DNA of 64,000 nt from Elsinoe ampelina. Taxonomy: Eukaryota. Below are positions 919 through 49,700 of this stretch, in pieces. The notes under the pieces were generated by a model that made no database searches, had not been told where the DNA came from, and worked only from the letters and a program-made list of their open reading frames with translations. The DNA is taken from positions 1,669,583-1,733,582 of the forward strand of contig ML992501.1 of NCBI GenBank assembly GCA_010093995.1, written 5' to 3'. Position numbers and translations under genes: made by a program. Numbering within the stretch: position 1 is the stretch's first letter; each line of letters opens with the position of its first letter.

Positions 919-988
919 GTTCTTCCTTCTCTCTGCTTGTTTCTTTTCATTCCGAGGTCCTCTCGCTCTATAGGACTTAATCAACACC

Positions 989-14124: not shown

Positions 14125-17100
14125 TATAATAGAGTATCTAGATAGAGCAGATACAATGTCTCTAAGATAGAGGAGTAATAGAGGAGAAGTATACACTATA
14201 TAAATATAATAACAAATTCCTAACCTCTCTATAGGAGGTTAGGAACTACTACTATATATACTATATAGAATTACAGCCGGAACAACGTATCTCCGACGTC
14301 TATCTACTAGCTATAAGTTTATAGTTTCTATTATAATTACCTTCTTCTCTATAGGCCTATCCTTAAGCTAGTCCCTTATTAAAACCCTCTAGTAGTAGGG
14401 AAAGAGTAAACTACCTTTAAAGCGTTATTACGCTATATATAAGAGTCTATATATAGGGTCTTAGCATTAGGTAAGAAATATAAAGTGTAGCTCTACTTAA
14501 CTTTATATATGAATTTACCTTACCTAGTATATATAACAATATTGTTCCTTCGTCTCCTAGCTACTATTATACTAGCTATAACAATAATTAGTAGGCTACC
14601 TTATTTCTTCTCGTATCTTTCTTTTCTTAATTAGTATAGGAGCCTTCTATTGTTTATAACAATAGAACAATAGGATGCTCTAATATATATACGAGGCTTC
14701 TCTCTCGTTAGAATATCTCTTCTCTTTCTTCTAAAAACCCTTTTACTAAAGTATAGCTCTCTACTCTCTACCTTATATTCTGTGCTAATATCTTCTAGTA
14801 TCTCTCTAACGTCTTATTATTCTTTCTTAGCTATTAGAAATCTTCTTTTAATATGTCTTCTCTAGTAAGTACTACCTCTAGTAGACCTAACTATAGCTAG
14901 ATCTAGCGTAAAGGTACTCCGCTATTGTCTCCTAGTTATACTAATATCGTTCTTATTATAAGGGGCCCTTATATTAACTGCCTTAAGCTCGCTACTAAAT
15001 ATATAATATTAGACAATACTAACTTTACTAACGACCTCTACTGCTATAAGGAGTAGAATAATTATGCCTCCTACTAGCTCTACTAGCTCTGCTATAATAG
15101 CTATACCTTTATAGGTTTAATATCTATTCTCTATTAGAGCAATACTAATACTCCTAGTTCCCTAAGCGCTATAGTAATAAACTTAAGGCTACTAGAGTTA
15201 CTTACGAGGCTATCTATACCTATTATTATACCGATAAGAATAAGAAGTTAGACGCTATACTAGCTAACAAGTAGCGCGTTTATAACGCCTATACTATAAT
15301 AGCGAGATATATTGCTACTCTTAAGGCTAAATATATTTCTACTAAGAAGAAGAGAAAGAGAGAAGAATTTAACTCTAATAATAATTCGCCTACGACCTAT
15401 AAGGACTTTGCTACCTTACTTACTAGTAGCTAAAAGACTAACGAGTTATTAGCAAAGATTATTAGCGCCTAGCCTACTAGGAAGGCTCCTATCTACGCTA
15501 CTATACTAGCCTCTAGTAGTACTACTAGTAGAGCTTAAGAGATTTAGAGAGTTAAGGTAGTTACTAGTATAGTATTTAGGTTTCTAGGTATAAGTATAAG
15601 TTCCTTAGTCAATATAATAGCTTAGAGCTATCGGAGATAGATTTTACCTTTTAGAGTTTATAGAGTTTTTTGCTTTCTACTTCTTCTTTTTGCCTAAGTC
15701 CTTTGTTTTATAGCCCCTAGCGGAGCTATAGCTCTTAGATCGCCCTTACTTCTTTATTAGGGCCTATTATCCCCTTAGGTATTATTGTATTATTAAGGGT
15801 CTATTATCGAGGTAGGTATTATTAAGGAGAGTATTATTGTTTAGATAATAGAGAAGTAATATATATATACTATCTCCTCTCTCTTTCTCCTTAATCTCCT
15901 TAGACTTCTTATTCTCTCTATCTACTTAACTTCTACGCTATAATATTAGAATTCTATAGTATTACGACCTACTATGTCTCTACTAATTAGATTAATAACT
16001 CTAGCTACGCTATATCCTTTAAGTCTCCGGAGATTACTAACGTTATTATAGAGGCGATATACTATCTTAGATTTAGTAGAGACTCCTCTAGTAACTATAA
16101 CTACGACTATAGTAAGAGTTCTAAGCCTAAGTTCCTACGGTTCTAAACCTCTTCTAACTATGCTATACTAGTATACTACTATTAGTATAAGCCTTGTATT
16201 TGCTACTAGACTATTATATACCTTAACTACGAGTAGGCTTAGTCCTAACGTATTTATAATAATAACGTAGGTACTTTCCTCCGCTACTGCCTCTATTAAT
16301 ATTTCTATACTAAATATGTCTTTATATATTTTTATTCTACGTCGTTACTACGATAGCTAACCTATAGTAGTATAATGTCTCTTGTACTTCGCTTATTAAG
16401 AGTCTTATTTCGACCTAGCGCGCCTTTAATACTACTATCTATGTTTAAGAGTCTAACGAAGATATAATAGAGTTCCTACGTAGTAATCTTATCCTTAAGC
16501 TAGTAGAGCTAGATAAGCCTAAAGATTTAGAGGATAGAGTTAAGATAGACCTCTTATAATCTACTAGTGTTACGTTAGAGACATATTATTAGGCTAATAT
16601 TATACTTTTTTATAATATAGACTTACTTTTTTAAATCTTAATCTCGTGCTATTCTCTTACCTTTCTCTTTCTCTATAGTGTAAGTTTAAGCTCTTTAAGC
16701 CTTATAAGCCCCTTACTTAATATAGTATTACTTCGCTATTATACTTAGAATAAGGCTCTTCTTCTTAAAGTTCTTAATTTTACTAATAGTATTCTATAGA
16801 TGCTCTATTAGCTCCTAGCTAGCTTCCTCTTTAGGATAGCCTTTCTAGAGTACCTTATAGTAAGTCTTACTCCTAATAAGGCTCTTATTAATTACCTCTG
16901 TAACTTTGTATTTTTCTTCCCCCTCGATCTCTACTAGTAGTAAAGTAACATTATTACCTCGTCGATAAGCCTTAAGAAGAGATATATAAAAGGTTAAGTA
17001 AATTAATTTTATATATACTAGAAGGTTAAGTCGGTATACTTAGTAGCCTACTATCTTAGTAACGGTAAATGGACCTATAAACTTCGCCGCTAGCTTCTTC

Positions 17101-24177: not shown

Positions 24178-25048
24178 TTAACTATCTACATTATCTACCT
24201 TAGTCTTATCCTTATTATTCTCCTTAATACTATTAATACGCCTAGTTAGCACTCTCGTAGCGTTATTAATTACCTATATAGTAGCGGCTTACTTATTCTT
24301 AGTAACTACCTATAAGAAAGTTAGCGTAGCTTAGGCGTTATAGAGGCGCACTTCTAGACTTATATAATTAGCTAAAGCCTTAAGCATAAAGCTAGTGTTA
24401 CTAATTATACCTAGGTATAGCGCCTTTACTAGCTACTTAGTATTAACTTTAGAGGCGAAGGGCATAGCGATAGTACTATTATAGCGTAAAGAAGTTATAC
24501 TATTACTATTACTCTTATTAACTACCTTACCCTTACCCTTAGTATTAGACTTACTCTACGTATGCTTAGTACTAGCCTTCTTACGTATATAGTTAGCATA
24601 GGTAGTAATCTAGCGCTTTAAGAGAATAATGTCCTTCTTAGGAGTAGTAGCGTTATTATAGAACAGTATATACGTAGTAAAGTATTTATTTTAGAGCTCC
24701 TTAGTAGTAACTTAATCCTTAGAGTTAAGCTTAGTAGGCTACTAAGGTTAGTATAAAGTAGGCGCGGCGTAGGTATAGAGTATACCTAGTAGTAGTGTTT
24801 ATTACTATAACTATAACAATTATAATAGGTAGTCTTAGCCGTAGTAATCTAGTAGAGGGGATTCTTAATAGAGAGTATACTATCTTCGAGCTAGAGGTGC
24901 TTATTAATAGTAATAGCGTAGTATAAGCATAGTATAGACTACTAGTCCTAGTCGGTAAAATCGCTCTTATAAGGTCTATAAAAGGTTAGTGCCGGTATAG
25001 CGTAAGTACTATATATAATACTTACTCCTTAGGAACTTTAGGGGCTAT
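24178..25048 (-). pseudogene. C1 antisense accessory gene: Cys6 zinc-cluster-like protein, two introns
   Basis: Collinear with the C2 copy (40052-40922). First Cys survives as TGC here where C2 has TAC. Confidence 0.62.
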
Positions 25049-26580: not shown

Positions 26581-28569
26581 ATATCTACTACTAGTTTAAC
26601 CTCGAGCGAATATAGAAGGTCTCTTAGTATAGGGGAAGAATAGAGTAAGCCTAAGCTAGAGGTAGAACTCTTTTATAGAGACTACGCCTACTTAAGGCAC
26701 TTTCTTGTTTAACTTAAAGCCTTCTTTACTCTAGAAGAGAATAAGTATACTAATAACGTAGTAAAGGTTCTCTATGCTAGGATACACCTTAATAGCGCTA
26801 CCTTTAGGTAGTTTAAGCCTTATATAAGTAGCTACCTAGATAGACAACTAAGCCTAGATATAAAGGCTATTTTTAAGAGCTTTAGTATCTTTTAGGCAAA
26901 GATTAAGTAAGTCTTTAACGTATCTAACAAGAAATACATTACTATAACAAAGATCCGATAACTACGACAATATAGGTCTATAGCCTAGTACTATTCCTAG
27001 TTCTAATAGCTCGTAATACACTTAGATTAGGACGATAGTACTAAATATTTAGCATTTTACTAAGGACTAAGCGACTTAGTTAAAGACTAAATAATACTTA
27101 AGCTACCCGATAGCCTTTAGGAACTAGTAGACACTATAATTGCTATTAACAACAGACTTTACAAACGACATATAGAGCGTTATAGAGGATATAAGGCAAA
27201 TACTAGATATATGCGTTTCTCCTAGAACTATAGAGACTCTATAGAACTTAATACTATACGCGAAGGCTACCTCTTATAGGTATAAAGCTATAGCTACGGA
27301 GGAAAGTTCCTTAGTAGAAAAGAGAGAGAGAAGTATAGATAAGAAAACTTATATTTTAAGTATAAAAGACCTAGGTATTAGGCTAGGGACTACCGATAAG
27401 GGGCGCTAGCTGATAGATTATATATAATAGTTGCCGGGCTAGTAGAAAAAAAGGCTAATACTACTATAGAAGACCTAATAACCTTTAGCGTAGGTAAGGA
27501 AATATAGAAGAAGTCTACGACAACTTAAGAGGTAAGAGAATTCTCTCTAGATGTTATACTTAACATCTCTATAACTAATAGCAAATAATAAAGCTAATAT
27601 ATAACGCTATTATAGATAGTATATTATAATAACTCTTATTATATTTACTTATTAGATAAGTAAGGATCTAGTTAGTTTCTATATAAGCTATCTAAGCGTA
27701 GATAGCTAACGAAATAGCTAGATTAGAAACCTAACCTAGAAGAGCTCTCTATAATTAGTAATAACATTAACTAACCTTAGAAGGTAGTTAGTAATAATTA
27801 CTAATATATAATTATTAAGATAAAGTATTAGGACGTAAGTACTATATAACAATATAGTAGCCTTACCTTTAGCTCTTATAGTAAACTATAAGGAAAGGCA
27901 TACTATATATCGCTTTAGAAATATACAAATCTAGATTATAAATAGTACTATACTATTTATTTATATAATATACTTAGAGAAGACACTATTAGTCTTAAAT
28001 ACACTACGGACTTCTTAGTAATTAAAATAGATAGTACTATCCCCTATAGCTAAGTAAGAGAATATACTTAGTGTAGCCTTACTAATTATAACTATACTAG
28101 GGACAGTAGCGATAAGGAGAAATATAACAAAGAATACTCTAAACAACTATAATATAACAATATAGATAAGAACTTATCTAATAACAATAATAATAACATA
28201 CTACTACTAGGTAGACAACTTAAAGTATACCTTATAGGGATATAGAGGAATTATATAATAATATACACCTACTACTAGAATAGGACATAATAAGACAAAT
28301 CTACATAACTTACTTTTGTCTTTAATACTAACGCCTAGCTATACCTAGAGGGAATAGTTATACTAATATAGGTATATAACACTACTTAGTATAACTAGTA
28401 GAGAATTATTAGACTTTATAGTTACTAAGAAACTTAGGCACTAGAAGTTTACCTTACTATATTAAATAGTAACAAAACACGACTTACCTAATAGATATAG
28501 TACTAATAATAGATATATATAGGAAAGGATTAGCTACTTATCTAAGGAGCTATAATAACAAAAAACTAG
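26581..28569 (+). pseudogene. A2 gag (RIP-inactivated, ~662 codons)
   Basis: One frame from ATA (RIPed ATG) at 26581 to TAG at 28567-28569. Internal stops are TAA/TAG explicable as CAA/CAG/TGG. Confidence 0.75.
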
Positions 28570-31500: not shown

Positions 31501-31900
31501 TTAAAACGAAATAACTAAGTAAGAAACTTAACTATACTAAACTAGAATCCTTTAAGATCCTAGAAAAGAAAAATAAAAACATATATAAACTAGAACTACC
31601 TAGGTATATAAAGATCTACCTAGTCTTTTATATATTACTATTAGAGAAAGTACTATAGAATATAGTACCTAGACCTATCGAACTAGATAAAGAAATATAG
31701 AAGCTATAGTATAAGATTAAAAGGGTTTTACATTATAAATTTATAAGGGAAAAACGTTACTATCTTATCTACTAGAAAGAATATTAGTATAGTAAGGTAA
31801 TATAGGAACTAAAGGAATATTTTACATTATAAGTAATTCTAGATTACTAGACTAAAAACCTATCCTAAGTAAACTAACTAGGTAGGCCTAATACTACTAA
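28560..31900 (+). pseudogene. A2 pol (RIP-inactivated; end approximate)
   Basis: De-RIPed AMIDSGAN ~28685, YLDD ~29668, HDKELL ~30233, HD.P.AGH.G..KT ~30620, chromodomain ~31710-31860. Confidence 0.8.
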
Positions 31901-32485
31901 TACTAAACAAAAACGAGAATGCCTAAGGAAGACTACTTAGCTAAAAGAAGTACTCTAATTATTACTAAATAAGGAACTCTAATCGGAGTTAGGTATAAAT
32001 AATTACTAGTCCTATAGTAGGACGGGATTTACTAATAATAGTATTTCCTCCTACTCTAAGACTTAAATATAGGTCTTCTCTAGAGAGATTACTTTCTCTA
32101 CCTTATTCTCTAATTTCTATATCTCTTTATATAAACGAAGCTTATTACCTATAGCTCTTTAATAAGTCTCTTTTACCTTTTTATAAGCTTCTTTAGCTTC
32201 CTTTCTAGTAGCCTTAGCTATAACTAATTCCTTTTATAAACGAATATACTTAGACTATAGATACTACTATTCTAATTTTGTTACCTAAATATTATAACTT
32301 AAGTAGTTACTTACGATATACTAGCTATAGATACCTAACTAAATATAGACCTTATAGTCTAGCCTCTTTAATTTATAACGAGAATAAGCCTATAGTATAT
32401 TAGTTCTAAATAGTTTAATAAACTCTAAGAGATTCTTTCGTATAAATATGCTAGATTTACTATAGCTTTGACGACTAAGAGGCAT
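31900..32485 (-). pseudogene. A2 antisense accessory ORF: Zn(II)2Cys6-like cluster plus coiled coil (3' end approximate)
   Basis: ATG at 32485. Tyr codons spaced x2-x6-x8-x2-x7 (TGY>TAY by RIP), followed by a K/E/A-rich heptad-like stretch. Same ORF in A3. Confidence 0.6.
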
Positions 32486-35400
32486 ATTTAGTATATAGTA
32501 TATAAAGATAAGAAAGAATACTTACTTATTAGGATAACTTAATTAAAGGAGAAGAGTAATATTATAAACTAGTAGGACAGCTAGAACATAGAGACGTTAG
32601 GACTAATTAAACTACTAAGGTTATTATATAACCTAGCCCGACATTTACCTAGTTCTCTATCTTCTCCAGTAGCTCTACCTCTAAAACTATAGAGCGCGTA
32701 GGTTACTAGCGGATATATACTCTATATTGCCCCCGACTCTTACTACGGAGTATATAGAGCATATAGAGAACGTAATAGAAAATACATATATATAGGAATA
32801 GTCCTTACCTTATATAAGTACTATAGTTAACCTCGTCTAGATAGCGAACACTAGTATTACTAAGGCTAGCCTTTATAATACTATCTAATTGTACTTTATT
32901 ATCTATAAGACCTACCTTCTCTAACTCTTACTTTAGTGCTATACTACTATAGAAGTAGAACTACCTCGTTCTTAGCTTAGCTTAGACTACTCGCGTAGGC
33001 TATGTTTAGACAGTTCGTAACAGCTACTTAGCCTAGTAAAGAGGCTATAGTAGCGAGATACTATAGTAGAGACAATACTAAAGCGTCTTAGCGATCCTAA
33101 AGAAAGAGAGACTACTAAGAGAGAGAGCTAGAGACAGTAGAATAATAGCGTCCTACTATTTTAAGATAAAGTCTTTATTCTAGCTATAAAAATGCTAACT
33201 ATAGAGATACTCTATAGGAATTATAATAATCTAATAGTAGGCTACCTCGGAATAGAAAAGACACTCTTTGTACTAAAGTAGAAGTACTATTAGAAGAGTA
33301 TAACAATAGACGTTACTAGATATATAAATTACTATAATAAGTACTAAAGAATAAAGGTTCCTCGATATTAGCCCTATAGTAAAATATAGACTCTAAGATT
33401 ACTCCCTATTAGAGAAGTACTCTAGTATTAGTTAATAGACTTTATTACTAATTTACCTCTAGTAAAGGACTAATAGAGCTCTATTACTAATTTAATTTTA
33501 GTACTAGTAGATAGAGTATCTAAATACGTTAGATATATTCTAGTAAGAAAAGACATAGAGGCCCGAGAGTTAGCTAATATTATAGAGAGAAAGATCCTTA
33601 GTCGCTATAGGTTCCTAAGAAGCTAGATTACTAATAGAGGTACCCTATTTAAGTTTAAATTTTAGACGTTTCTCTACTAGAGATAGAAGGTCTAGAGACG
33701 CCTCTTAATAGCGTTCTACCCTTAAACTAATAGCGCTATAGAGAGGTAGAACTAGATAATTAAATAGTACCTAAGAGTGTTTATTAATTTCTACTAAGAT
33801 AACTAGCTATACTAGCTATATTAGGCCGAGTTTGCCTATAATAGCTCCTATAGCGCATCGCTAGAGGTAAGTCTACTCTACTATATTTATAGAATAGTCC
33901 TATATCTCCCTAACGATGTTAAGGCTAACGCTATAGAGAAGAAGGTAGCTCTATAACTACTAGAAGTACTAGTAGTAGAAGTAAGAGTAAAGGCCCTATA
34001 AGATATAAAAGAAGAACTTAAGTAGTATAGACTTAACGCTATTACGTAGTAGGAGATATACTATAATAAGAAGTACTAGCTAATAAGGTTTAAGAAAGGC
34101 TAAGAAGTTATACTAAGTACTAAGAACCTCTAGTTCTTCTAGCTAAAGAAGAAGCTAGTAGCAAAGTTTATAGGTCTATTTACTATCGCTAAGATAGTAG
34201 GCTACTAAGTATACTAACTTAACCTTCTAGTATATATAAAATTAATCTACTTAACCTTTTATATATCTCTCCTTAAGACTTATTAACGAGGTAATAACGT
34301 TACTCTACTACTAGTAGAGATTAAGAGGAAAGAAGAATATAAGGTTAAAGAGGTAGTTAATAAGAGCCTTATTAGAGATAAGACTTACTATAAGGTACTC
34401 TAGAAAGGCTATCCTAAAGAGGAAGCTAGCTAGGAGCTAATAGAGTATCTATAGAATACTATTAGCAAAATTAAGAACTTTAAGAAGAAGAGCCTTATTC
34501 TAAGTATAATAGCAAAGTAATGCTATATTAAGTAAGAGGCTTATAAGGCTTAAAGAGCTTAAACTTATACTATAGAGAAAGAGAGAGGTAAAGGAATAGT
34601 ATAAGATTAAGATTTAAAAAAGCAAGTCTATATTATAAAAAAGTATAACATTAGCTTAATAATATATCTCTAACGTAATACTAGCGGATTATAAGAGGTC
34701 TATCTTAACTTTATCCTTTAAATCTTTAGGCTTATCTAGCTCTACTAGCTTAAGGATAAAATTACTACGTAGGGACTCTATTATATCTTTATTAGACTTC
34801 TAAATATAAATAGTAGTATTAAAGGCATACTAGGTTAAAATAAGACTCTCGATAAGTAGAGTATAAGAGATATTATACTACTATAGGTTAGCTATTATAG
34901 CAATAATATAGAATAAAAACATATAAAGACATATTTAGTATAGAAGTATTAATAGAGGTAGTAGTAGAGGAAAGTACCTACGTTATTGTTATAAATATAT
35001 TAGGACTAGGCCTACTTATAGTTAAGGTATATAGTAGTCTAGTAGCAAATATAAGGCTTATACTAATAGTAGTATACTAGTATAACATAGTTAGAAGAGG
35101 TCTAGAACTATAGGAACTTAAGCTTAGAGCTCTTACTATAGTTGTAGTTATAGTTACTAGAGGAGTCTCTACCGAATCTAAGATAGTATATCGCCTCTAT
35201 AATAACGTTAGTAATCTCTAGAGACTTAAAGGACATAGTATAGCTAGAGTTATTAATCTAATTAGTAGAGATATAGTAGGTTATAATACTATAGAATTCT
35301 AATATTATAGTATAGAAGTTAAGTAGATAGAGAGAATAAAAGGTCTAAGAAGATTAAGAAGAAAGAAAGAGAAGATAGTATATATATATCACTTCTCTAT

Positions 35401-35710
35401 TATCTAAATAATAATACTCTCCTTAATAATACCTACCTCGATAATAGACTCTTAATAATATAACAATACTTAAGGGAATAATAGGCCTCTAATAAAGGAG
35501 TAAGAGCAATCCGAGAGCTATAGCTCTACTAGGGGCTATAAAATAAAAGACTTAGGTAAAAAGAAGAAGTAGAAAGTAAAAAACTCTATAAACTCTAAAA
35601 GGCAAAATTTATCTCCGATAGCTCTAAGCTATTATATCGACTAAGGAAACTATACTTATACCTAGAAACCTAAAGACTATACTAGTAACTACTCTAACTC
35701 TCTAAATCTC

Positions 35711-36396
35711 TTAAGCTCTACTAGTAGTACTACTAGGGGCTAGCGTAGTAGCGTAGGTAGGAGCCTTCCTAGTAGGCTAGGCACTAATAATTCTTACTAA
35801 TAACTTGTTAGTCTTTTAGCTACTAGTAAGTAAGGTAGTAAAGTCCTTATAGGTTATAGAAGAATTGTTGTTAGAGTCGAATTCTTCTCTCTTTCTCTTC
35901 TTCTTAGTAGAAATGTATTTAGCCTTAAGAGTAGTAATATATTCTACTATTATAGCATAGGCGCTATAAACGCGCTACTTGTTAGAGAGTATAGTAGCTA
36001 AGTACTTATCTTCGTTGTTATAATAGCGAATATAGATAGTCTCGTAGGTAACTCTAGTAGTATTAAGCTTAGTATTATAGCGCTTAGAAAACTAGGAATG
36101 TTAGTATTACTCCGATATAGAATAGACGTCGGACCTATAAAGGCATAGCTATTATAGTAGAGCCTATAAAGCTAGTAGGAGGTATAGTTATTCTACTCCT
36201 TATAGTAGTAAGAGTCGTTAGTAAAGTTAGAGTTATCTAATATTACATATTTAGTAGAGAGCTTAAGGTAGTTAATATAAGAACCCCCCTTAATAAGGAC
36301 AGGGTTAGAGTAACTAGAGAACAATAGCGAAGTATCTTCGCGCTAGATCTAGCTATAGTTAGGTCTACTAGAGGTAGTACTTACTAGAGAAGATAT
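35711..36396 (-). pseudogene. B1 antisense accessory gene (Cys6-like, one intron)
   Basis: Same 686-bp span as the B2 copy. Branch point CTAAC preserved. Confidence 0.62.
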
Positions 36397-39300
36397 ATTA
36401 AAAGAAGGTTCCTAATAGTAGAGAAAGAATAATAAGATATTAGAGAGATACTAGAAGATATTAGTATAGAATATAAGGTAGAGAGTAGAGAGCTATACTT
36501 TAGTAAAAGGGTTTTTAAAAGAAAGAGAAAAGATATTCTAATAAGGAAGAAGCCTTATATATATATTAGAGCGTTCTATTATCTTATTATTATAGATAAT
36601 AGAAGGCTCTTACACTAATTAAGAGAAGAAAGATATAAGAAGAAATAAGATAGCTTACTAATTGTTATTATAGCTAGTATAATAGTAGCTAGGAGACAAG
36701 AGAATAACGTTGTTATATATACTAGGTAAGGCAAATTTATATATAAAGTTAAGTAGGGCTATACTTTATATTCCTTACCTAATGCTAAGACCCTATATAT
36801 AGACCTCTATATATAGCATAACGACGCTCCGAAGGTAGTCTACTCTTTCTCTACTACTAGAGAGTTTTAACAAGGGACTAGCCTAAGGATAGGCCTATAG
36901 AGAAGAAGGTAATTATAATAGGAACTATAAACTTATAGCTAGTAGATAGACGTTAGAGATACGTTATTCTAGCTACGATTCTATATAGTATATATAGTAG
37001 TAGTTCCTAACCTTCTATAGAGAGGTTAGGAATTTATCGTTATATTTATATAGTGTATATCTCTTCTCTATCGCTTCTCTATCTTAGAGACATCGTATCT
37101 ACTCTATCTAGATACTCTATTATAGTAACTCTTGCTCTAAGTTACTATTAGTATCTTCGATCGCTAGTAAGCTAGGAAAGCTTACTATTAACGATATATC
37201 TACTACTAGTTTAACCTCGGGTAAATATAGAAGGTCTATTAGTATAGGCAAGAGACGAGGTAAGCCTAAGGTAGAGGTAGAACCCTTCTATAGGGACTAC
37301 GCCTACCTAAGGCGCTTCCTTATCTAGCTTAAGGCCTTCTTCGCTCTAGAGAGAGATAAGTACGCTAACGATATAGCTAAGGTCCTTTACGCTAGTATAT
37401 AGCTTAAGAGTGCTACCTTTAGGTAGTTTAAACCCTATATAGGAGGCTACTTAGATAGGCAATTAAGTCCTAATACGAAAGCTATCTTTAAAAGCTTTAA
37501 GCTGTTTTAAGCTAAGATTAAGTAAGTCTTTAACGTATTAGACAAGGAACGTGTCGCTATAACGAAGATCTAATAACTATAATAGCGTAGGTCTATAGCC
37601 TAGTACTATTCCTAATTCTAATAACTTATAATATACCTAGATTAGAATAATAGTGCTAAATACTTAGCGTTTTACTAAGGACTAAGCGACTTAGTTAAAG
37701 ACTAAATAATACTTAAGCCGCCTAATAGCCTTTAGGAACTAGTAGACACTATAATTACTATTAATAATAGACTTTACAAACGACATATAGAACGTTATAG
37801 AGGATATAAGGTAAATACTAGATATATATATTCTTCTCGAAACTATAGAGACCCTATAGAACTTAATACTATACGCGAGAGCTGCCTCTTATAGGCGTAA
37901 AGCTATAGCTATAAAGGAATATTCTTTAGTAGAAAAGAGAGAGAGAAGTATAGATAAGATAATTTATATTTTAAGTATAAAAGACCTAGGTATCGGGCTA
38001 GAGACTACTAATAAGAGGCGCTAGCTAATAGATTATATATAATAGTTACTAGGCTAGTAGAGAAAAAGGCTAATACTACTATAGAAGACCTAACGACCTT
38101 TAGCGTAGATAAGGAAATATAGAAGAAGTCTACGACGACTCGAGAGGCAATAGAACTCTCTCTAGGTATTATACTTAATATCTCTATAACTAATAACAAG
38201 AAACGATAAAGCTATTACGCGACGCTATTATAGATAGTATATTATAATAACTCTTATTATATTTATTTATTAGACAAGTAGGGATCTAGTTAGTTTCTAT
38301 ATAAGCTATCTAAGCGTAGGCAACTAACGAAATAGCTAGACTAAGAGTTTAACCTAGAAGAGCTCTCTATAATTAGTAGTAACATTAACTAACCTTAGAA
38401 GGTAGTTAGCAACAATTACTAATATACAATTATCGAAATAGAGTATTAGGACATAAGTACTATATAATAATATAGTAGCCTTACCTTTAGCCCTTATAGT
38501 AAACTATAAAGAAAGGCATATTATATATCGCTCTAGAAATGTATAAATCTAAATTATAAATAGTACTATACTATTTACTTATACGATGTACTTAGAGAAG
38601 ATACTATTAGTCTTAAATATACTATAGACTTCTTAGTAATTAAAATAGATAGTACTATTCCCTATAGCTAAGTACAAGAATATACTTAGTATAGCCTTAC
38701 TAACTATAACTATACTAAGGGCAGTAGTAACGAAGAGAAATATAATAAAGAATACACTAAACAACTATAATGTAATAATATAGATAAGAACTTATCTAAT
38801 AACAACGATATACTACTACTAGGCGAACGACTTAAAGTATACCTTATAGAGATATAGAGGAATTATATAATAATATACACTTACTACTAGAATAGAATAC
38901 AATAAGATAAATCTATATAACTTACTTTTATCTTTAATACTAACGCCTAGCTATACCTAGAGAGAATAGTTATACTAATATAAGTGTATAACACTACTTA
39001 GTATAACTAGTAGAGAATTATTAGACTTTATAGCTACTAAGGGACTTAGGCGCTAGAAGTTTACCTTACTATATTAAATAACAATAAAACACAACTTACC
39101 TAATAGATATAGTACTAATAGTAGATACGTATAGGAAGGGATTAGCTACTTATCTAAGGAGCTATAATAACAAAAAACTAGCTAGTTGTCGCCTAATATA
39201 ATAAAGATAGAATATTAGAGCTAGGAAGACAAGTATATAGGAGTAGAATAGGTATTATACTAGTATACCCTTGATTGTTATAAGACTAATCTCTACTCTA

Positions 39301-40051
39301 TCTATTCTATAGGCGAGAAGTGTTTTATTCTCCTATAGAGAATAGTATCTCTAGAGTAAGCTAGCGTAGTATACTTACTATATTAGTTCTTATAATTATT
39401 TCTCTTCTTCGAGGGGTATACTCTTACGCCTACGAGCCTTAATAAAACCTAGAAAACCTAGTATAGGAGAAAACTAGGAAAGAGTATCTCGCTAGCGCCT
39501 CTTAGACGTAGCATACTCTTCGTACGTATAGTACGCCTATAGTAGCCTATACTATTCTTCGTATACCGAATATAGTAACAATAGTATAATTCTTTATATA
39601 TAAAATGTAGCGCTCTTACGTTATTATCTTTATATATAAGGATCTACCTATTATTATATACTACTACCTATTATTCTCTAGATTAGGCTTAGCTTAGAGC
39701 TAGATATATACCTTTCTCTTCTTCTTCTCTTCTTCTTTTCTCCTTTATAATACTTCCTTTATATAAGTATCTTACTTAACGCTAGCTCTATACTTACGTA
39801 GGTCTAACACTATACTAGTAACCTATTTTAGGTACTATATAGTATAGACTAGACCTTACTAGCCCTTAGGCTAGTAAGGGAGGCTTAGTATATATACTAA
39901 GCCTACGCTACTATAGATCTAGCTATTAGACTTGTCTATTTAGTTATTTATTTACTGACCTAGCGTAGCACCTACGTAGTAATTTCTTTTTCCTTTATTA
40001 TTCTAGCTCTACGCTAGCTTACCTTCTATACGCTTATATACTTTAATAACT

Positions 40052-40922
40052 ATAGCTCCTAAAGTTCCTAAGGAGTAAGTATTATATATAGCACTTACGC
40101 TATGCTAGCGCTAACCTTTTATAGACCTTATAAGAGCGATTTTACTAACTAGAACTAGTACTCTATACTATACTTACGCTACGCTATTACTATTAATAAG
40201 TACCTCTAGCTCGAAGATAGCGTACTCTCTATTAAGGATCCTCTCTACTAGATTACTAAGGCTAAGGCTACCTACTATAATTGTTATAGTTATAGTAATA
40301 GACACTACTACTAGGTATACTCTACGCCTATGCTATACCTACTTTATGCTAACCTTAGTAGCCTACTAAGCTCGACTCTAAGGATTAAGTTACTACTAAG
40401 AAGCTCTAGGACAAATACTTTACTATATATATACTAACCTATAATAACGCTACTACTCCTAAGAAGAACATTATTCTCCTAAAGCGCCGAATTACTACCT
40501 ATACTAACTATATATATAAGAAGGCTAGCGCTAAGCATATATAGAGTAAGTCTAACACTAAGAGTAAGAGTAAGGTAGTTAATAAGAGTAATAGTAATAG
40601 TATAACTTCTTTACGCTATAATAGTACTATTACTATACCCTTTATCTTTAAGGTTAATACTAAGCAGCTAGTAAAGGCGCTATACCTAGGTATAATTAGT
40701 AATACTAGCTTTATACTTAAGGCTTTAGCTAATTATATAAGTCTAGAAGTGCGCCCCTATAACACCTAAGCTATGCTAACTTCCTTATAGGTAGTTACTG
40801 AGAATAAGTAAGCTACTACTACGTAGGCGATTAACAACGCTATAAGGGCGCTAACTAGGCGTATTAACAGTATTAAGGAGAATAATAAGGATAAGAGTAA
40901 GGTAAATAATGTAGATAGTTAA
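40052..40922 (+). pseudogene. C2 antisense accessory gene: Cys6 zinc-cluster-like protein, introns 40075-40124 and 40315-40358
   Basis: Introns GTAAGT...GCTAAC...TAG (50 nt, phase 2) and GTATAC...GCTAAC..TAG (44 nt, phase 0) join three exons in one frame. De-RIPed Cx2Cx21Cx9Cx2Cx6-7C. Confidence 0.65.
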
Positions 40923-42845
40923 GATAGAGAAAGCTAGGGCGCTACGCCTATACTATACCCTCTTTACTTTAGTATAATTCTATAGTTTTTACTACGCTAG
41001 CGTTCTCCCTATATAAGCTAATAATACTCTAAGCTAACCTAGCGCTATGCCTAGGTACTCTTTACTTTAAAATTTATACCTTTAACTTATTAATCCTAAG
41101 TATATCTAGAGTATTTAGCTAGCGCTATACTTACGCTAAGCTACCTCGTATTTATATAGTAATTCCTTAGCGTTTATAAGGTTTTTTGCCGGCTCCTATA
41201 TACTTTCTTCTATAGGGTAACTCTGCTACTTTACTAGGTAGTATAGCGTCTTTAGAGTGCTAGTATAGCTCTTATTAAAGATACATTTAATAATGTATTC
41301 TTCCTACCCTTCTACCTCTAGGGGCGGTAGGTATATACCCTTACTACGCCTATATAGCTCTAGTAGCGCAACGTTAAAGACGTTATAGATTAGCTTTATT
41401 TTATCTAGTAAGTGTAGCTTATATACCTACGTACTAATTCGTTATATAATTATAAACGGGCTAATATACTTAGCTAATAGCTTATAGCTAGGTCTAGTGC
41501 TATAAAGGTTCTTAGTACTAAGTATAACCTCGTTACTATCGTAGAAGACTTTTACTTATTAACCTTTATTATAGGCTAGTACTTAGTCTTCTTATACTTT
41601 ACGTAGGTATCGAGCAAGCTCCGTGCGTATTTTAGTAATAGATTATACTTAGTTATTAACTAACAGGTTATACGCTAGTACGTAGCTAGGTAGCGCTAGC
41701 GCCTTAATGTTATTAGGTAGATATATCTCTTATATAAATAAGAACTACACTAGCGTAGTATATAGTAATGCTTAATATATATTATTATATACGAATTGCG
41801 CCTACTTAACCTAGTATAGCTAGTCTGTCTAGTAATAGTCGATAAAGTAGCGTAGGTACTACTCTAGCGTCTAGTTTTGTCTTTCGGTTTAGCTGTCTAT
41901 CTATAGATAGAAACTAGTACTAAGCTTATGTTATGTCTTCTAGCGCTAGTATAGCGCACTCTAGAATTTGCTTATAAAGATAGACTCTCTATCTAAGACT
42001 AGTGTCTTTAGCGTTCCGAACAACGTTATAATATCTGTTTTAAATAGATTAGTAAAGTCTCTAGCGTTAAGCTTAGTTAACATCGGTATATAGATACTAA
42101 ACTTAGATAAGCAATAGATATATATAACAATTACGTCTATAATAACGCTAGGCCGGAGCTCTACCGGGAGTAAGCTAGTAATAAAATTAAGCATCTAGTG
42201 TTATAAGGCCTCGAGTATAGGTAGAATTAGCAAGGGTTATAGGAGGCTATAAGGCTTATACTACGTTGCCTTATACCTTTAGCAGCTATTATAGTGCTTA
42301 ATATACACTTTCGTAGCGATAGATATACCTAGCTACTAGTACTTTCTCCTTATATTAAAGTAGGTCTTTATATAGCTAAAGTAACTCTCTAAGGAGTTGT
42401 TATAATTATGCTATATAAGCTCTACTCTTAAGGTAGTTTCTTCTAGGATATATACCCTATCTCTATTCCGGAGTAAGCTATTACTAGATAGGCTCTACTT
42501 AGAGGTAGCACTATTACTAGTTAAGGTTATCTCTTTTAGAAGTTCTTATTTCTTACTATAAGTAAAGGTATCTCTTTACTATACTACGTAGATAAGGTCC
42601 TAGAGCGATATAGGAGTAGAAGAAGTATACGTAGTTTTGTCTACTAGTACTTATATAGCATAGAGGTACATAATCTACTAACCCTAGTCTAAAATTATAG
42701 TAGGCTTTCTACTAGAAGTATCCCGGAGTTATATAGGCGTTATACTATCTTTATGCCCTTAGCTCTCTATTATTTCCTAGGCGAGTAGCGGCACGTCCTA
42801 GAATACTAAGGTAAGCGTATATTGTTCTAATTTAATATTGCTAGT

Positions 42846-43047
42846 TATTAAGCGGAAGGCACGTTTAGGGGTAGTATATTGTATAGAACTAATCCGCACA
42901 CTAGTTAGGTAATAGACGAGTTAATTAATTAAGGAGTCTATCTACCGAAAGAAAGAATAGCTATAAATCCCTAAGACTTAGTATTACATAACCTATAGTT
43001 ATATAACCTTCGGGCCTAATTATCTAGAGAGAGCTATATTCTTAACA
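42846..43047. repeat. Solo LTR of a fifth family (E), 202 bp
   Basis: Absent from C1. Flanked by direct repeat CTAGT (42841-42845 / 43048-43052). Ends T[G>A]TTAAG...CTTAACA. Confidence 0.8.
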
Positions 43048-46000
43048 CTAGTTAGGCTTAGAGAAAGGTTTATATAAGTGCTCTTTAGGCGCTACTCTTC
43101 TTACTCTAGAGGCTCTAACTCTTCTTAGTATAGCTATAGCGCTCCTAAGGTAATAGGTAGACTTATAGGCGCTATTCTAGGGGCATACTAGAATTATATA
43201 AGTGCGTTATATTAGGGAGTAGTTTAAGGTATATAAGCTATACTAGCTTTATTACTATCTTCCTAAGCCCTACTAGCCTTAGGTTTCTTGTCTATAATAG
43301 ATATAGTTATAACTCCTTTGCTTTGTATTTATAACGCTTACTCTAAGAGAAGAACTAATATATAGCGCTCTTTCTATATATCTTCTTTATACTTATAGTA
43401 GTTAGGCCTACGTAATAGGCTATTAGCCGGGTTAGTCTTTCTACTATAGTGCTAGATAATAATATTAAACTACGCTAGTACCTTAGCATAGTAGGCCTAG
43501 CGCTATAAAAGCTTCTTAGTAGTTAGGAAATACCTAAGGTTATTATAGTTAGAGAGAACTTTAATCGAGGTAGTAGCGCTAAGTAAGTACTAGCGCTAGT
43601 GCTACGCTGCTTCTATAATAGTAAGAAGCTCTTTGTCGTAGGTAGTGTAGTTTAGTTCTATACCTTATAGCTTCCGGGACTAGAACGCTATAGAGTGCTA
43701 GTGTTATATAGGAGTGTCGCCTTTGTTTTACTAGGAGATTACTCTAGAGAGTATAAAATCTAAAGCGTTAGTCTCGAGCTAGAGGGGCTTACCTAATAAA
43801 AAGTAGTATAGTATAGGCACTTACGTAAAGGCAGCTTTAAGTCTATTAAAAGCCTACGCTACGTTATTACTCTATAGAAATAGGCCTACTTACTTTCCTT
43901 AGACTAACTCTTATATAAGTATAGTTAGTAGTAGTACTACGCGGAAGAAGCCCTTAATAAATTAATAGTAGAAATTAGTAAATCTAAGAAAGGTTTATAA
44001 CTCCTTAAGGCTAGTAGAGGTAGGCTAGTTAGTAATAGCTTATACCCGGGGCTACTCTATTATAACGCTATTACTACTAATAACGTAGCTTAGAAATACT
44101 ACCTATATTATCTTAAAGATATACTTCTTTAGTTTTATATAGAGGCTATTCTTACGTAGGTAGTCTAGTACACTCCTAATAGCTAAGTAATACTCTTACT
44201 TATCGCCGGCGTAGATTAGAATGTCGTCTAGGTATATAATATAGTAGTAGTCTACTAAGCTACTTAAGTACTAATATATATAAGCCTAGAACGTAGCTAG
44301 GGCATTAGTAAGGCTAAAAGGTATAATAGTATATTTAAAGTAGCTATAGTAACAGCGGAATACTGTCTTTTATTTATCGCTATACTAGATATATACTCTA
44401 TAGTAGGTATCTATAAGGTCTAGCTTACTAAATAAGTATATACCCTCGATATAATTAAGTATCTTAGCAATTAGAGGTAAGAGGTAACAGTTCTTAATAG
44501 TAATATTATTTAGCCTATAATAGTTAATATATAGGCGTAGCGAACTATCCTTCTTAAGAACAAATAGAATAGAAGACCCCGTAGAGCTAGTACTATACTA
44601 GAGTCGGCCCGTTACTAAGCTATTATCTATATACTCTTAAAGTACCTAAAGCTCCTTCTCGCTAAGGGAGTAAATAGGTCTCTAGAGTAGCTATTTCCCC
44701 TCTTTAATATTAATAGAGTAAGTAAAACTATTACTTAGTAGCGCTATTACTACGCTCTTATTAAAAACGTCTATATAGTTATTAAGCTAGTATAGTAGAG
44801 TTAGGGCGCTAGGTTCGTCCTAGTATATATATACTAGGTAGAGCTAGGCGTTAGGCTAATTTAGCTCCTAGGAGAAGAAGACATCTAGGATCGACACCTA
44901 TATAGCGCTAGTATAATGCCTCTATATACTAGCGCTCTACTAAATCTTAGAGTTGTAGAATAATAGCTATAGTAGGCCTAATACAAGATTGTAACTAGTT
45001 ATATTAATGCTTTTAAATCGCTAGTATAATACCTACGTTATTTCTTTGCTGTCCTTAATAGTAAAGGCTAACTTAGTATATCTATAGGTAGTTAATTCGT
45101 GTTTGTCTAAGCTACGCACCTAGTATACTACTAGAGAGTTAATAGCGATATAAAAGCGCATAGCAAAATACTAGCTAATAAAGTTACTATCGGCGCTACT
45201 ATCTATTAGAGCTACCTCTTTAATAGGGCCTTTAGGTAGGTTAACTATAATGTCGGTGCGAATTTAGTATATATCCTACATTACGCTAGAGCTACTTAGG
45301 ATTAGTAAATATAAGGACAGTATCCGTTTTAAAGAGTTCTTCTAGGGATAGTTTAGCGCCTAATAGTCTAGGCTCTTATAGATATTATAAGAGTAAGTAG
45401 CGCTAGGTTAGAGAGCTATAGGGGTAGCGTTAGCGCTACTCTACTAGTCCTTTTAGCCCTTATAGTCTTTGTTATAGTAAGGCCTTTTAGCAAAAGTATT
45501 AGTCTTCTCTCTAGTGTTATACTTATACTACCTCTATATAGGGTCGAAGTAGCCTAGTAGGTTCTACTCTAAACGGGATAGATATACTAGAAGTTCTACC
45601 TTAATTAGGGGTAGGTTCCCCTAACGGAGTACTTCTAAGCGTAGCTCTAGTATAGTATAGGCGATAAGCTATATATAGTAAGCATTGTCTAGGAGTAGTA
45701 CTATCTTAATATAGAACCTATAACTATTAAGAAACGTACAGAAATTAGTAATTAACTATTCTCTATACTAGCGCGACGTAAAGAACTTTACTACGTAGCT
45801 ATTACTACAGTTCTTAGAACTCTAGGCTTAGTCCTAAAGCTAGGACTATATTAGGCTCTACGAGGGTATAACGCTAGCGCTCTTAGTATATAAGTCCTAA
45901 TTGTAGCTAAGCTAACCTTTTAAGTAGCTAGTAGCTATATAGCACTAAGTAACTTCTTTAAAGTAGATATTTAGTACTATCTTAAAGACGTTATTATACA

Positions 46001-46799
46001 TATATATAAATTCCTTAACTCTTACTATAATAGTAGACTCTAAGGCCTCGAGGTAGTATAAGTTTAGTATATACTCTCTTACGATTTATAGGTTTATTAG
46101 GTAAATATTGTTAGGTTATATGTTATTAAAACAACTACGTAGTACTAGCGCTACAACTAGGGAGTAACTACTAAGTATATTTTTAAGCTAAGTAATATAA
46201 GTAAGAAGCGCTTTATATATAGTATTATTTCCTATGTCGGCTATGCTTCCTATAGGAGCTATATTAGCGTAGTATAGTCTTAGCACTAGCCCTTCTCTAG
46301 CCTAGTAATCTTTAATAGGGATTGTCTCTAGGGTTATAGCTAATTTAGTAAATGTCTCGCTAATAGCTAATGTTACTATATAGTTAACCGAAGCTTACGT
46401 AGTATAAAGCTTAGCGTATAATATATAACCTAAGATAGCTTTCTATAGCAAATATTATATAACTATGTCTTAATACACTTTTTATTACTAACTATTACAG
46501 TTTATATAACATTTAGTAGCACTAACTTAAGATCTAGTCCTTTAGCTACAACCTATTACTCTAGGTTAGTTAAGCATAAGTTTAACCCTAATCGACCCTA
46601 GAGACTCTACTAACTAGTAGCTATTAAGGGACTATCTACTAGTTGTGTATTATTAGTTATTTTTATTAAGAGCAACCTCTAAGAGGCGTATAGAGTTTAT
46701 TAATAACACCTTTTGTTAAGTCTATTAATAAAACTCTAAGTAACTTATACCTAGTAACTGCTAGGAGCTACTAACCTAGCTTTAATAACTAGTAAGAAG

Positions 46800-49700
46800 G
46801 TAGTATAACCTCTAAGAAGGCAACTCTTAAGTTTATTATTAACTTTCTAAAGGGAAGTATTATAACTACTAGACATCGATTAAGTTCGATTATTAACACT
46901 AGTTAAACCTCTAGAGAATTTACTTAAACTCTCTAACTACTTAGTTGCTTTTGCTAAAAGCGGCCTAGTAAATAGAGTTAATTTAGCCTATAGTTCTACT
47001 CTTCGACTTACGAACCTTCTTATTAAATAGCACCTAATAGTAGTCGAAGGAAATATATAGAGTTATACTTATCTTTATAACTAATATCTATTAGGCTACC
47101 TAGAAGGCTAGTTACATTATAGATTATTGTTAAATATAGCTATTTACACGTATAGAGCATAAGCTACGGCTTATATTAACTAACTTTAAAGCTTAGATAG
47201 TATTTCACCGATAGAACCTCTAACTTAACTACATACTTCGAGCGTAAATAGCGAAGACTCTTAAGTATAGTCTTAGCCTCCGTAGTTAGCGGTAAGACTA
47301 GCGGACACTCCTTAAGAAGCCTATACTAACAATAGTTAAACGTAATAACTAGAGTAACTAGAGTCTCGTCTAGAGACACTATAACCTTTTTAAAGACGCT
47401 TAGCTATTCTATATATACTAGTAAGAGAGAAGCTATAGAAATTAGTTCTATATACTCTAGTCCTAGGGGAATATCCCTAATTAATCTCTAGAGCCTCTAG
47501 ACATTCCGTAAGCAACTCTCCTATACTAATAGTAATACCCGAGTAACTCGACAATATAGTTATGTATATTCTAGACGATTTAACCGGACACTCGAGTGTT
47601 GCGAGCGAATAGCGCACTAAGATAGTTACTCTATCTCGGGCTATGTTATAAGCTCTACCTATAGTAACCTAGATAGTTAAATAACCTCTAGAAGCTAAAA
47701 TTAGAAAGCGATAGTTAAGGGATAACCGCTCCGACGAAATAGTCTCTAATCTTAACTATCTAGGGCACTAACGTAGAATTAGCTATTAAAGGACTATCTC
47801 CTAAAGATTAGTATATATAGTTCTAGAGGAAGATAACCTTTTCGTATTCTTCCCTCGAGCCTAATAACGTACACTAGAGCCTCCTCTATTAGTTAAGCCT
47901 CCTTTAGAGTTTTAATAAGTAGCTATAGAAGAACTCTCTACTGCCTTAAGGTAAGCTTTTTCTATAATAATATAAGCTTAACTTAACGCCCTTTAAGGTT
48001 TTACTTTAAGGATAGTTAAGAACGAACACTATTAAGCTATAGTAGAGACACTTACTACTTAATAGCAACAACGTAATAGGCACTTTAAACGCCTTATAGT
48101 AGCCGGCCTACTCTCCTAGGACGCCTAGGTATAGTAAGAACTAACTAACTAACCTAGCTAAGATTAACTAGTATAAGATTAACTCTAAGTCTATACTAGT
48201 AAAGCTCCTACCCTAGACAATAACGATAGAGGAAACAATTGTTCCTTACTCTATAACGATTGTATCGACTAATACTATTTAGACCGAAACGACTATAGCT
48301 ACGTAGATAACTATAACTACAATAATTAACGCCGCTATAAGAAAAACACTAGGCGGAACTAAGCTTATAACTTATAATAACTAATAGACTAGCGCTATAG
48401 AGAGTTAGATCGCTTCTATTATAACAGCTGTTATAAGAGAAAGAACAAACAATAACGAGCCTAAGGTAACTACTCGGTATACTATAACGTTAATGCCTAA
48501 TATCTAGCTAGTATATACTATACTAACTCTAAAGAGGAGGTAGTTAACTTCTACCGTAACTGTACTAGAGTAGAGACACCTCTAAACAACTATACCTGTC
48601 CCTTAGTTCCGCTACTATCGCCCCCTAGGGATAATAGGCGTAGTAGAGGACGGCGTAATAACTATAGAGAGTATTATAACGACAACTATAACTAAAGAGA
48701 AGACTACCGCTACTACTACGACGCTAACTATAGTAGGCGGAATTGCCTTAACTATTATCTAAATAATTTAGATAATAACTTGTCGACGGATAAAGAAGAT
48801 AACTAATTTACAACTTATAGGCACTACTCCTATAAATTTATCGCTATAGAAATTAAATACTTTAACTCTAACATGTAATCTATAGACTAGAATCTAGTTA
48901 TAACTACTAATAACGCTATAGTTTTTATAAACGTTTATAGCTTTATAGACGTAGTTAAGGATTTTATCGAGTATAACGACTTTTACTTAGTTAGGCACTA
49001 GCTTAACTATTACTTCTAAGGCCGAGCTTATACTTAGTTTATTAACGAGCTTTCTAAGAGCAACTATAGGTAAGTTTATAAGGGCTATAGTATCGAACGT
49101 TAGCGTGACCTCCTTATAACTAAATTTAAGATAGATTTTAGTACTGCCTATAAGCTATTAATAAAGAAGAGGTTTAGTATAGTATAGGTTAATAACTATA
49201 AGAACCTAGCCGACTATATTTATATAGTAGTTAGTCTTACAAGGGATGCCGGTATAGAGTTAGATAAGATAGTACTCCTTTAAGCTTAGTTCGGACTAGA
49301 TCTTAACCTCTAGCTCTATATTACTTGTCCTAACTATAAGACAACTATTAACGCCTTCGTAAGAAAGATAGAATTTGTTCTTCTAACCTAGCGTACTATT
49401 AGTAAGTCTAAGAGCAACTCTTAGTACCTTACTAGATATACTAGACCTAGACAATAGTTCGGACCTAACTGCTAGTAAGGTCGCCCCCTATTTATTCCTA
49501 ATAATAACTAGTATTGTTAGCTATATAGGCCTAACAATAGTAGTACCTATAACAATGCTAGTAGAAGTAACAATTCTAGTAACTATAATAGTTATAATAG
49601 TAACAATTATAGTAGGGGCAACTATATCTCTAAGTTACCTTATGCACTATATAACTAGTAGAACAGATTCTAGAATAACGCCTACGCCCCTTACTAATTC

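What the first reader, a model, noticed from the sequence alone, without database searches (positions are those of the whole stretch)
40052..40922. Spliceosomal introns retained inside LTR retrotransposons (antisense genes of families C and B)
Seen: C has two and B has one short (44-50 nt) fungal-type intron with donor, CTAAC branch point and TAG acceptor, and their removal restores one frame. In both families a phase-0 intron lies 1-2 codons after the last Cys. Known: sense introns tend to be lost through the RNA intermediate, whereas antisense introns survive. Inference: these are separately transcribed, spliced genes. The shared intron position and long first loop (x20/x21) suggest the B and C genes are homologous and old.
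Basis: partly seen in the sequence, partly recalled or inferred. Interest (0 to 1): 0.7.

Follow-up and report, generated by a model that had tools for sequence, protein, structure and literature searches.

The report
Conserved intron in retrotransposon antisense genes
Dead, mutation-riddled fungal jumping genes carry backward-facing extra genes whose intron sits at the same spot, just after a six-cysteine motif, as in intact relatives from other fungi; backward extra genes are a known kind, and what these proteins do is still unknown.

Summary
Largely confirmed. At 40052-40922 a RIP-wrecked Ty3/Gypsy chromovirus (family C) holds, antisense between pol and the 3' LTR, a gene with introns of 50 and 44 nt whose signals persist in most of 26 copies. 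In all three a phase-0 donor follows two codons after the sixth Cys-compatible codon. Of 81 intact gypsy loci, 7 carry an antisense six-Cys gene with a donor at exactly that spot; one equals a Stemphylium gene model spliced there; a close pair differs at 55 synonymous against 10 nonsynonymous codons. Host Zn2Cys6 genes lack this intron (0 of 27). Against: B's GT shows in 1 of 12 copies, no C copy shows ATG, B-C residue similarity is at chance, the copies show no selection signal, and splicing was not seen in RNA. Best reading: a spliced accessory gene for a nuclear zinc-cluster regulator, its introns invisible on the genomic RNA. Precedent: brtn of Botrytis Boty and plant antisense ORFs. This scan noted such genes many times before, here and in other genomes.

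The parts
39197..39394 (-). Family C 3' LTR (the element runs on the minus strand; 5' LTR at about 60621-60824; target-site duplication CCTAA on both sides; a 14-kb element is nested at 46370-60495)
   Evidence: self-BLAST; ends read
39395..39410 (-). Polypurine tract of family C
   Evidence: purine run next to the LTR
40052..40074 (+). C antisense gene, exon 1 (start codon not seen as ATG in any copy)
   Evidence: ATA 25, ACA 1 of 26
40075..40124 (+). C intron 1, 50 nt, phase 2
   Evidence: donor, branch and acceptor each in 26 of 26 copies
40125..40314 (+). C exon 2 with six Cys-compatible codons (40171, 40180, 40246, 40276, 40285, 40306; spacing x2, x21, x9, x2, x6)
40315..40358 (+). C intron 2, 44 nt (or 47 nt to 40361), phase 0, two codons after the last Cys-compatible codon
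   Evidence: donor GT 23 of 26, branch 26 of 26, acceptor 25 of 26
40359..40922 (+). C exon 3, 187 codons and stop; converges on the end of pol
   Evidence: stop density 0.051 against 0.088 and 0.238
41110..45101 (-). C pol: RT, RNase H, integrase zinc finger, SH3, chromodomain
   Evidence: Pfam
24178..25048 (-). Second window copy of the C antisense gene (approximate ends)
14125..14335 (-). Family B 3' LTR (element 14125-22038, minus strand, nested in the second C copy)
14853..15110 (+). B gene 1, exon 1, with six Cys-compatible codons (x2, x20, x9, x2, x6)
   Evidence: ATG in 7 of 12 copies
15111..15157 (+). B gene 1 intron, 47 nt, phase 0, two codons after the last Cys-compatible codon
   Evidence: GT in 1 of 12, branch 12 of 12, acceptor 12 of 12
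15158..15538 (+). B gene 1, exon 2, with a basic Lys/Arg run (3' end uncertain)
   Evidence: stop density 0.024 against 0.054 and 0.207
16012..16323 (+). B gene 2, exon 1: second, paralogous six-Cys gene (16186, 16195, 16255, 16285, 16294, 16315; x2, x19, x9, x2, x6)
   Evidence: ATG in 10 of 11 copies; 43 of 57 purine/pyrimidine matches to gene 1, p 0.0002
16324..16367 (+). B gene 2 intron, 44 nt, phase 0, two codons after the last Cys-compatible codon
   Evidence: GTATGT 1, ATATGT 8, ATATAT 2 of 11; GCTAAC 10 of 11
16368..16650 (+). B gene 2, exon 2 (3' end uncertain; runs towards the end of pol)
   Evidence: stop density 0.060 against 0.099 and 0.164
34600..36396 (-). Second window copy of the B gene pair (approximate ends)

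Best explanation
Families B and C are dead Ty3/Gypsy chromoviruses of a lineage whose members carry an accessory gene (two in B) on the strand opposite gag-pol, between pol and the 3' LTR. The gene is transcribed from its own promoter in or near the 3' LTR (inferred), spliced by the host spliceosome (inferred from signals and from intact relatives), and encodes a small protein with a variant six-cysteine zinc cluster and a helical or basic tail. On the genomic RNA the introns read backwards, so they are not spliced out and are copied through every round of reverse transcription; the site two codons after the cluster has therefore persisted across the lineage. Most likely the protein works in the nucleus like a Gal4-type zinc-cluster factor that regulates the element itself, by activating it or countering its silencing (function inferred, about even odds; gene and intron much firmer).
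For: Shown: chromovirus context and antisense position. Splice signals across copies. Motif plus intron signals ring at only 3 sites and their copies, 2 hits in 20 resamples. Length changes avoid the exons: upstream of C 16 of 26 copies differ in length, in C exons 1 of 26 (+9 nt), in B gene 1 exons 0 of 12. 7 of 81 intact loci have a donor exactly 6 nt after the last Cys (L048, L053, L060, L063, L064, L066, L130), where donor hexamers occur at 0.0018 per base. L064 matches the Stemphylium lycopersici model P0020 letter for letter in four exons, the first junction at that site. L063 against L066: 55 synonymous and 10 nonsynonymous codon differences, a 10-nt indel and 72% identity in the intron against 86-89% in exons. 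Pro stands second after the junction in B gene 1, C, L048, L053 and L064. Strand bias of intron signals. Intronless sister genes score below cut-off against Zn_clus in 4 of 7, and 8 of 17 weak Foldseek rows for one of them are Zn2Cys6 domains.
Against: No splicing seen in RNA. B's GT donor in 1 of 12 copies, B gene 2's in 1 of 11; no ATG for C. Cys codons seen at only 6 of 18 columns. In the cluster exons the +1 frame is as open or more open than the proposed frame (C 0.0 against 0.065; B gene 1 0.049 against 0.051; B gene 2 0.037 against 0.071). Transversions among B and C copies are not enriched at third positions. No B-C similarity beyond the Cys codons. No intact close relative of the B or C protein was found. 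None of 7 intron-bearing exons hits Zn_clus, and their fold failed (pLDDT 40.6). L066 lacks a canonical branch point and L053's acceptor is AAG. The evidence behind the Stemphylium gene model is unknown.
Confidence: 0.7

Rival explanations
1. Real spliced gene, but the protein is not a transcription regulator: it binds the element's RNA or cDNA, or tethers integration to chromatin.
For: Loops between the cysteines vary widely among intron-bearing relatives (x7-x26 and x8-x32), unlike the fixed x6 first loop of all 27 host Zn2Cys6 clusters read; 0 of 7 hit Zn_clus.
Against: Sister genes at the same place have canonical spacing plus a long helix, the Gal4-type layout (own knowledge); basic runs follow the cluster in B gene 1.
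Confidence: 0.25
2. The B and C genes arose separately, by capture of host zinc-cluster genes, and the shared intron site is convergent or inherited from host genes.
For: B-C similarity is at chance outside the Cys codons; first exons of intact carriers are mostly unalignable between types.
Against: 0 of 27 host Zn2Cys6 genes have this intron; the site recurs in 7 intact elements, 6 of them on the B/C side of a branch with support 98 in the RT tree; C and both B genes share x9, x2, x6 and +2.
Confidence: 0.1
3. The antisense RNA is what matters (self-silencing through double-stranded RNA) and the frame is incidental.
For: Antisense transcription has been proposed to act this way in plant elements (PMC7264820); B and C copies show no codon-position bias.
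Against: Strong synonymous bias on the antisense frame of intact pairs: 55 against 10, 48 against 16 and 48 against 11.
Confidence: 0.07
4. The introns and cysteines in B and C are chance patterns of RIP-mutated DNA, which is rich in TAG, CTAAC-like words and Tyr codons.
For: Cys-compatible triplets make up 9% of this DNA; the +1 frame is as open in the cluster exons.
Against: 2 hits in 20 resamples against 3 independent sites, all antisense in the 3' spacer; same layout in intact relatives; for C only the proposed frame of exon 2 leads through intron 2 into the least-stopped frame of exon 3.
Confidence: 0.05

Closest known systems
[quoted passage not shown] 2011; paper not held, seen only as cited in PMC7264820, PMC8365987 and PMC4227169)
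   Same: Fungal Ty3/Gypsy element with a chromodomain and an extra antisense gene between pol and the 3' LTR.
   Different: The brtn sequence could not be fetched, so homology, cysteine motif and introns are untested; the passages read mention none of them. B carries two paralogous genes.
Plant antisense additional ORFs (aORF-3R): Grande gene23, RIRE2, Retand TRP28, PvRetro13 (PMC7264820, parts 1-2 of 3 read; PMC11963269, passages)
   Same: Same position and orientation; kept in most copies; Grande gene23 has its own promoter and a nuclear product; a regulatory role is proposed.
   Different: Plant non-chromovirus lineages with TRP28 or SMC-like domains; 'intron' does not occur in the Retand paper; the review asks for spliced antisense transcripts to be looked for.
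Fungal Zn(II)2Cys6 (Gal4-type, PF00172) transcription factors
   Same: Six cysteines as two CxxC-x-C halves; intronless sister genes add a long helix and give sub-threshold hits.
   Different: First loop x19-x21 in B and C instead of x6; no Pfam hit for the intron-bearing type; the +2 intron is absent from 27 host genes.
Antisense genes of deltaretroviruses, such as HTLV-1 HBZ (promoter in the 3' LTR per PMC7264820; spliced nuclear regulator recalled from memory)
   Same: Antisense gene driven from the 3' LTR region of a retroelement.
   Different: bZIP protein of a mammalian retrovirus; no sequence relation claimed.
DUF3716 (PF12511) proteins, such as REP9-1 and REP9-2 of a Zymoseptoria DNA transposon (PMC8232023, passages)
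   Same: Cysteine-rich fungal protein of unknown function carried by a transposon.
   Different: No Pfam hit in 4 window pieces or 14 intact relatives; only a weak Atlas lead (score 0.77, 28% of a cluster).

Membership tests
Ty3/Gypsy chromovirus (host element) | pol in the order RT, RNase H, integrase, with a C-terminal chromodomain, between LTRs with a target-site duplication | tested here: met
   (chromodomain E 0.0054, below cut-off in this mutated copy)
Antisense additional ORF (aORF-3R class) | ORF between pol and 3' LTR on the opposite strand | tested here: met
Antisense additional ORF (aORF-3R class) | Present in most copies of the family | tested here: met
   27 of 30 C loci and 12 of 17 B loci span the gene at constant exon length; the others are partial matches
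Antisense additional ORF (aORF-3R class) | Purifying selection on the antisense frame | tested here: inconclusive
   met in intact relatives; not seen among the B and C copies
Antisense additional ORF (aORF-3R class) | Transcribed antisense from its own promoter | not testable with these tools
   no run holding the stretch was available
brtn family | Sequence homology to Botrytis brtn | not testable with these tools
   paper not held; no brtn-named protein among the hits
Zn(II)2Cys6 (PF00172) | Spacing C-x2-C-x6-C-x5-12-C-x2-C-x6-8-C | tested here: not met
   first loop x21 (C), x20 and x19 (B genes); the later spacings fit
Zn(II)2Cys6 (PF00172) | Profile score above the Pfam cut-off | tested here: not met
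   0 of 4 window pieces, 0 of 14 intact relatives; best 17.5 bits against 21
Zn(II)2Cys6 (PF00172) | Binuclear zinc-cluster fold | tested here: inconclusive
   intron-bearing type did not fold; intronless sister gave only E above 3 to Put3, Leu3, Gal4, AlcR and Pho7 and coiled-coil matches
Zn(II)2Cys6 (PF00172) | Zinc binding and sequence-specific DNA binding | not testable with these tools
   needs bench work
DUF3716 (PF12511) | Profile match | tested here: not met
   window pieces are RIP-mutated, so the test is weak for them
Spliceosomal (U2) intron | GT donor, CTRAY branch, YAG acceptor, fungal length | tested here: met
   C introns directly; B introns only through 1 copy each for the GT; 5 of 7 intact carriers canonical, L053 ends AAG, L066 lacks the branch
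Spliceosomal (U2) intron | Removed from RNA | not testable with these tools
   only a gene model supports it

The most novel reading that the evidence does not exclude
A broad lineage of fungal chromoviruses encodes its own family of spliced, antisense zinc-cluster regulators, older than the split of these element families and marked by an intron two codons after the cluster that host zinc-cluster genes lack. The gene can duplicate within an element (family B), one sublineage has lost the intron through reverse transcription of the antisense mRNA, and the proteins act as trans-activators or anti-silencing factors, a fungal parallel to retroviral antisense regulators.
Probability: 0.3. Interest if true: 0.75.

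Novelty: new variant of a known kind. Interest (0 to 1): 0.5.

Why it matters
LTR retrotransposons are usually treated as intronless gag-pol units. A conserved spliced antisense gene means a third, element-encoded protein that annotation misses or files as a host hypothetical gene (as with P0020). The function of antisense additional ORFs is an open question named in the plant review; an intact fungal element with a matching gene model makes it testable. The fixed intron site is also a phylogenetic marker that survives RIP when residues do not.

Tried and rejected
Searches with the mutated exons found no relative: C exon 3 profile, 0 of 2844 candidates; B exon 1 profile, one low-complexity hit; Pfam, 0 of 4 pieces; the three exon profiles against 81 intact loci, best E 3.2. 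Columns that are stops in all copies did not separate frames. First attempts at C's exons used a wrong frame. RNA: no RNA holder listed; nothing from 4 contig runs lay on 34500-41500; this says nothing on expression. P0020 found no match in the own genome with this query. Fold of the intron-bearing exon failed; the wide structure search returned only coiled coils, Z at most 6.7; Atlas hits were all under 0.9. A 24-bp palindrome upstream of C (39881-39904) was considered as a binding site: no copy shows a CGG variant there and palindromes of like length occur in pol, so it was dropped. The sister grouping of B and C in the RT tree was not used: quick tree only, long branches, biased composition. 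No second six-Cys gene was found in the spacers of the 7 intact carriers, bar one doubtful Cys-rich stretch in L130. Literature: 8 searches found no paper describing cysteine motifs or introns in fungal antisense ORFs; the brtn paper is not held and may describe them; no supplements were read, and Fig. S1 of PMC8365987 may bear on this.

Full report
Setting. From about 5 kb on, the window is a nest of RIP-mutated repeats (GC about 32%, TpA/ApT about 2). The finding lies in an LTR element on the minus strand at 39197-60824, with a 14-kb element nested inside; its pol has RT, RNase H, integrase zinc finger, SH3 and a chromodomain.

Observation, family C. The own genome gave 30 loci; 27 span the gene and 26 the wider region used for counts. 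All are heavily mutated. Intron 1 (40075-40124, 50 nt) keeps donor, branch and acceptor in 26 of 26. Intron 2 (40315-40358, 44 nt) keeps GT in 23, a branch in 26 and the acceptor in 25 of 26. The three segments join in one frame that ends in TAA in 26 of 26. Exon 3 has the fewest stops in that frame (0.051 per codon against 0.088 and 0.238). Against: no copy shows ATG at 40052 (ATA 25, ACA 1), so exon 1 is the weakest part; and exon 2 has no stops in the +1 frame against 0.065 in the proposed one.

Observation, family B. Of 17 loci, 12 span the gene. ATG at 14853 shows in 7 of 12. The 47-nt intron at 15111 has GT in only 1 of 12 copies, a branch in 12 and an acceptor in 12. A scan for six Cys-compatible codons followed by donor, branch and acceptor rang at three sites and their second copies, against 2 hits in 20 Markov resamples. 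The third site is a second gene in B: ATG at 16012 in 10 of 11 copies, spacing x2, x19, x9, x2, x6, a 44-nt intron two codons later (GT in 1 of 11, GCTAAC in 10 of 11). In purine/pyrimidine letters, which RIP does not change, it matches B gene 1 at 43 of 57 places outside the Cys codons (p 0.0002), so the two are paralogues. C matches either at 32 of 57 (p about 0.22).

The cysteines are mostly inferred. A Cys codon shows in some copy at 1 of 6 columns in C, 2 of 6 in B gene 1 and 3 of 6 in B gene 2. Known integrase cysteines read as Tyr codons in 25, 23 and 25 of 25 copies, but so do histidines. None of the 18 columns shows a His- or Arg-type variant, where 56 of 196 and 69 of 230 such triplets do; I chose among neighbouring columns partly by this rule, so it is not an independent test. 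Length changes avoid the exons (upstream of C 16 of 26 copies differ; C exons 1 of 26, by 9 nt), but transversions are not enriched at third positions.

Intact relatives. Searches with the mutated exons found nothing. Through pol I fetched 2 IMG/VR and 79 metagenome loci. Seven hold an antisense six-Cys gene with a donor exactly two codons after the last Cys: L048, L053, L060, L063, L064, L066, L130, with introns of 39, 46, 44, 47, 79, 57 and 67 nt. L048, L053 and L064 are circularly permuted contigs, so their genes lie behind pol; L130's place relative to its own pol is not certain. Thirteen loci hold related genes without this intron; the other 61 showed none by my patterns, many because the contig ends near pol. 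Donor hexamers occur at 0.0018 per base. L066 lacks a canonical branch and L053's acceptor is AAG. L064 encodes, letter for letter, a Stemphylium lycopersici gene model of 286 residues in four exons, the first junction at this site; whether RNA backs that model is unknown. L063 and L066 differ at 55 synonymous and 10 nonsynonymous codons on the antisense frame, while the intron is 72% identical with a 10-nt indel. Intron-like signals in the spacers number 14 antisense and 2 on the genomic strand, 5 of the 14 being the selected sites; in pol, 4 and 0.

Age and origin. RT-RNase H identity among carriers is 50-64% between types, 73% and 94% within two pairs. In a quick tree (83 rows; the careful search did not finish) B and C fall with six of the seven carriers on one side of a branch with support 98; L130 sits beside the intronless group. 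Of the 13 intact loci on that side, 6 show the gene, 3 are cut short and 4 show none. B and C have long, compositionally biased branches, so their pairing is not evidence. Of 96 host Zn2Cys6 matches, 30 were fetched, 27 had the whole cluster in one frame, and none has this intron; clusters split by an intron were not scored. The site is therefore a trait of the element lineage, which supports common ancestry of B and C where residues cannot.

How it likely works. Shown: position, strand, signals, conservation and selection in relatives. From established knowledge: the spliceosome reads only the strand it is given, so an intron of an antisense gene is not removed from the genomic RNA and passes through reverse transcription. 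Inferred: a promoter in or near the 3' LTR (about 650 nt upstream of C's gene), splicing, and a nuclear product. For the protein, the intron-bearing type has no Pfam hit in 7 exons and did not fold. The intronless sister type has canonical spacing and a long helix (pLDDT 68), sub-threshold Zn_clus scores in 4 of 7 and non-significant Foldseek rows, 8 of 17 of them Zn2Cys6 domains. It probably works like a Gal4-type regulator of its own element, but it fails the family's spacing and profile tests and is not filed there.

What is known. Antisense ORFs at this place are described in plant elements and in Boty of Botrytis (PMC7264820, parts 1 and 2 of 3 read). brtn I saw only as cited (passages of PMC8365987, its preprint and PMC4227169); the paper itself is not held. 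Passages of PMC11963269, PMC3248453, PMC8232023 and PMC11437445 were read; 'antisense' and 'intron' do not occur in the fungal LTR survey PMC3248453. Eight searches found no description of the motif or the intron. This scan has noted such genes many times, in this genome and others, the tandem pair included; those notes are unchecked and were used as leads only.

Verdict. A real feature: dead copies of a spliced antisense accessory gene family of fungal chromoviruses, with a lineage-specific intron site. A new variant of a known kind; function and splicing await RNA and bench tests. Interest 0.5.

Noticed in passing
window 16012-16650 (+) and about 34600-35236 (-): Family B carries a second, paralogous antisense six-Cys gene with its own 44-nt intron at the same site.
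   Followed up: yes
window about 32000-32560 (-); L051 about 3340-3890 (-): A third family (25999-33022) has an intronless antisense ORF with canonical six-Cys spacing and a coiled-coil-like tail, close to L097 in layout; best seen in the less mutated copy L051.
   Followed up: partly
L050 600-1500 (+): A less mutated chromovirus of another family in the own genome has an antisense ORF with a Lys/Pro-rich stretch; its 5' part is cut by an inserted element.
   Followed up: no
L051 about 4160-4820 (-): An open stretch with a CxxC-x6-C-like motif lies at and beyond the LTR, perhaps part of a flanking element.
   Followed up: no
window 39854-39904: Two adjacent palindromes about 150-200 nt upstream of the C gene; similar ones occur by chance in pol.
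   Followed up: partly
window about 42600-43350 (-): About 250 residues without a Pfam hit lie between RNase H and integrase in C's pol, longer than in the intact relative P0008.
   Followed up: no
   Followed up: no
window 5500-64000: RIP here depends on the 5' base: surviving CA counts are ACA 741, GCA 375, TCA 20, CCA 5 over both strands.
   Followed up: partly
window 6683-37124: Halves of B and A elements lie in opposite orientations at 6963-10692, 25904-26002 and 33023-37124, suggesting inversions inside the nest.
   Followed up: no
L053, L060, L063, L064, L066, L130 antisense genes: Further intron-like units follow downstream of the conserved one (two to three per gene), and L074, L110 and L111 appear to have an intron inside the cluster.
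   Followed up: partly
window 974-1999 (+) and 3781-4731 (-): Two unmutated host ORFs at the edge of the repeat nest; the first looks like an alpha/beta hydrolase of epoxide-hydrolase type (recalled motif, not tested).
   Followed up: no
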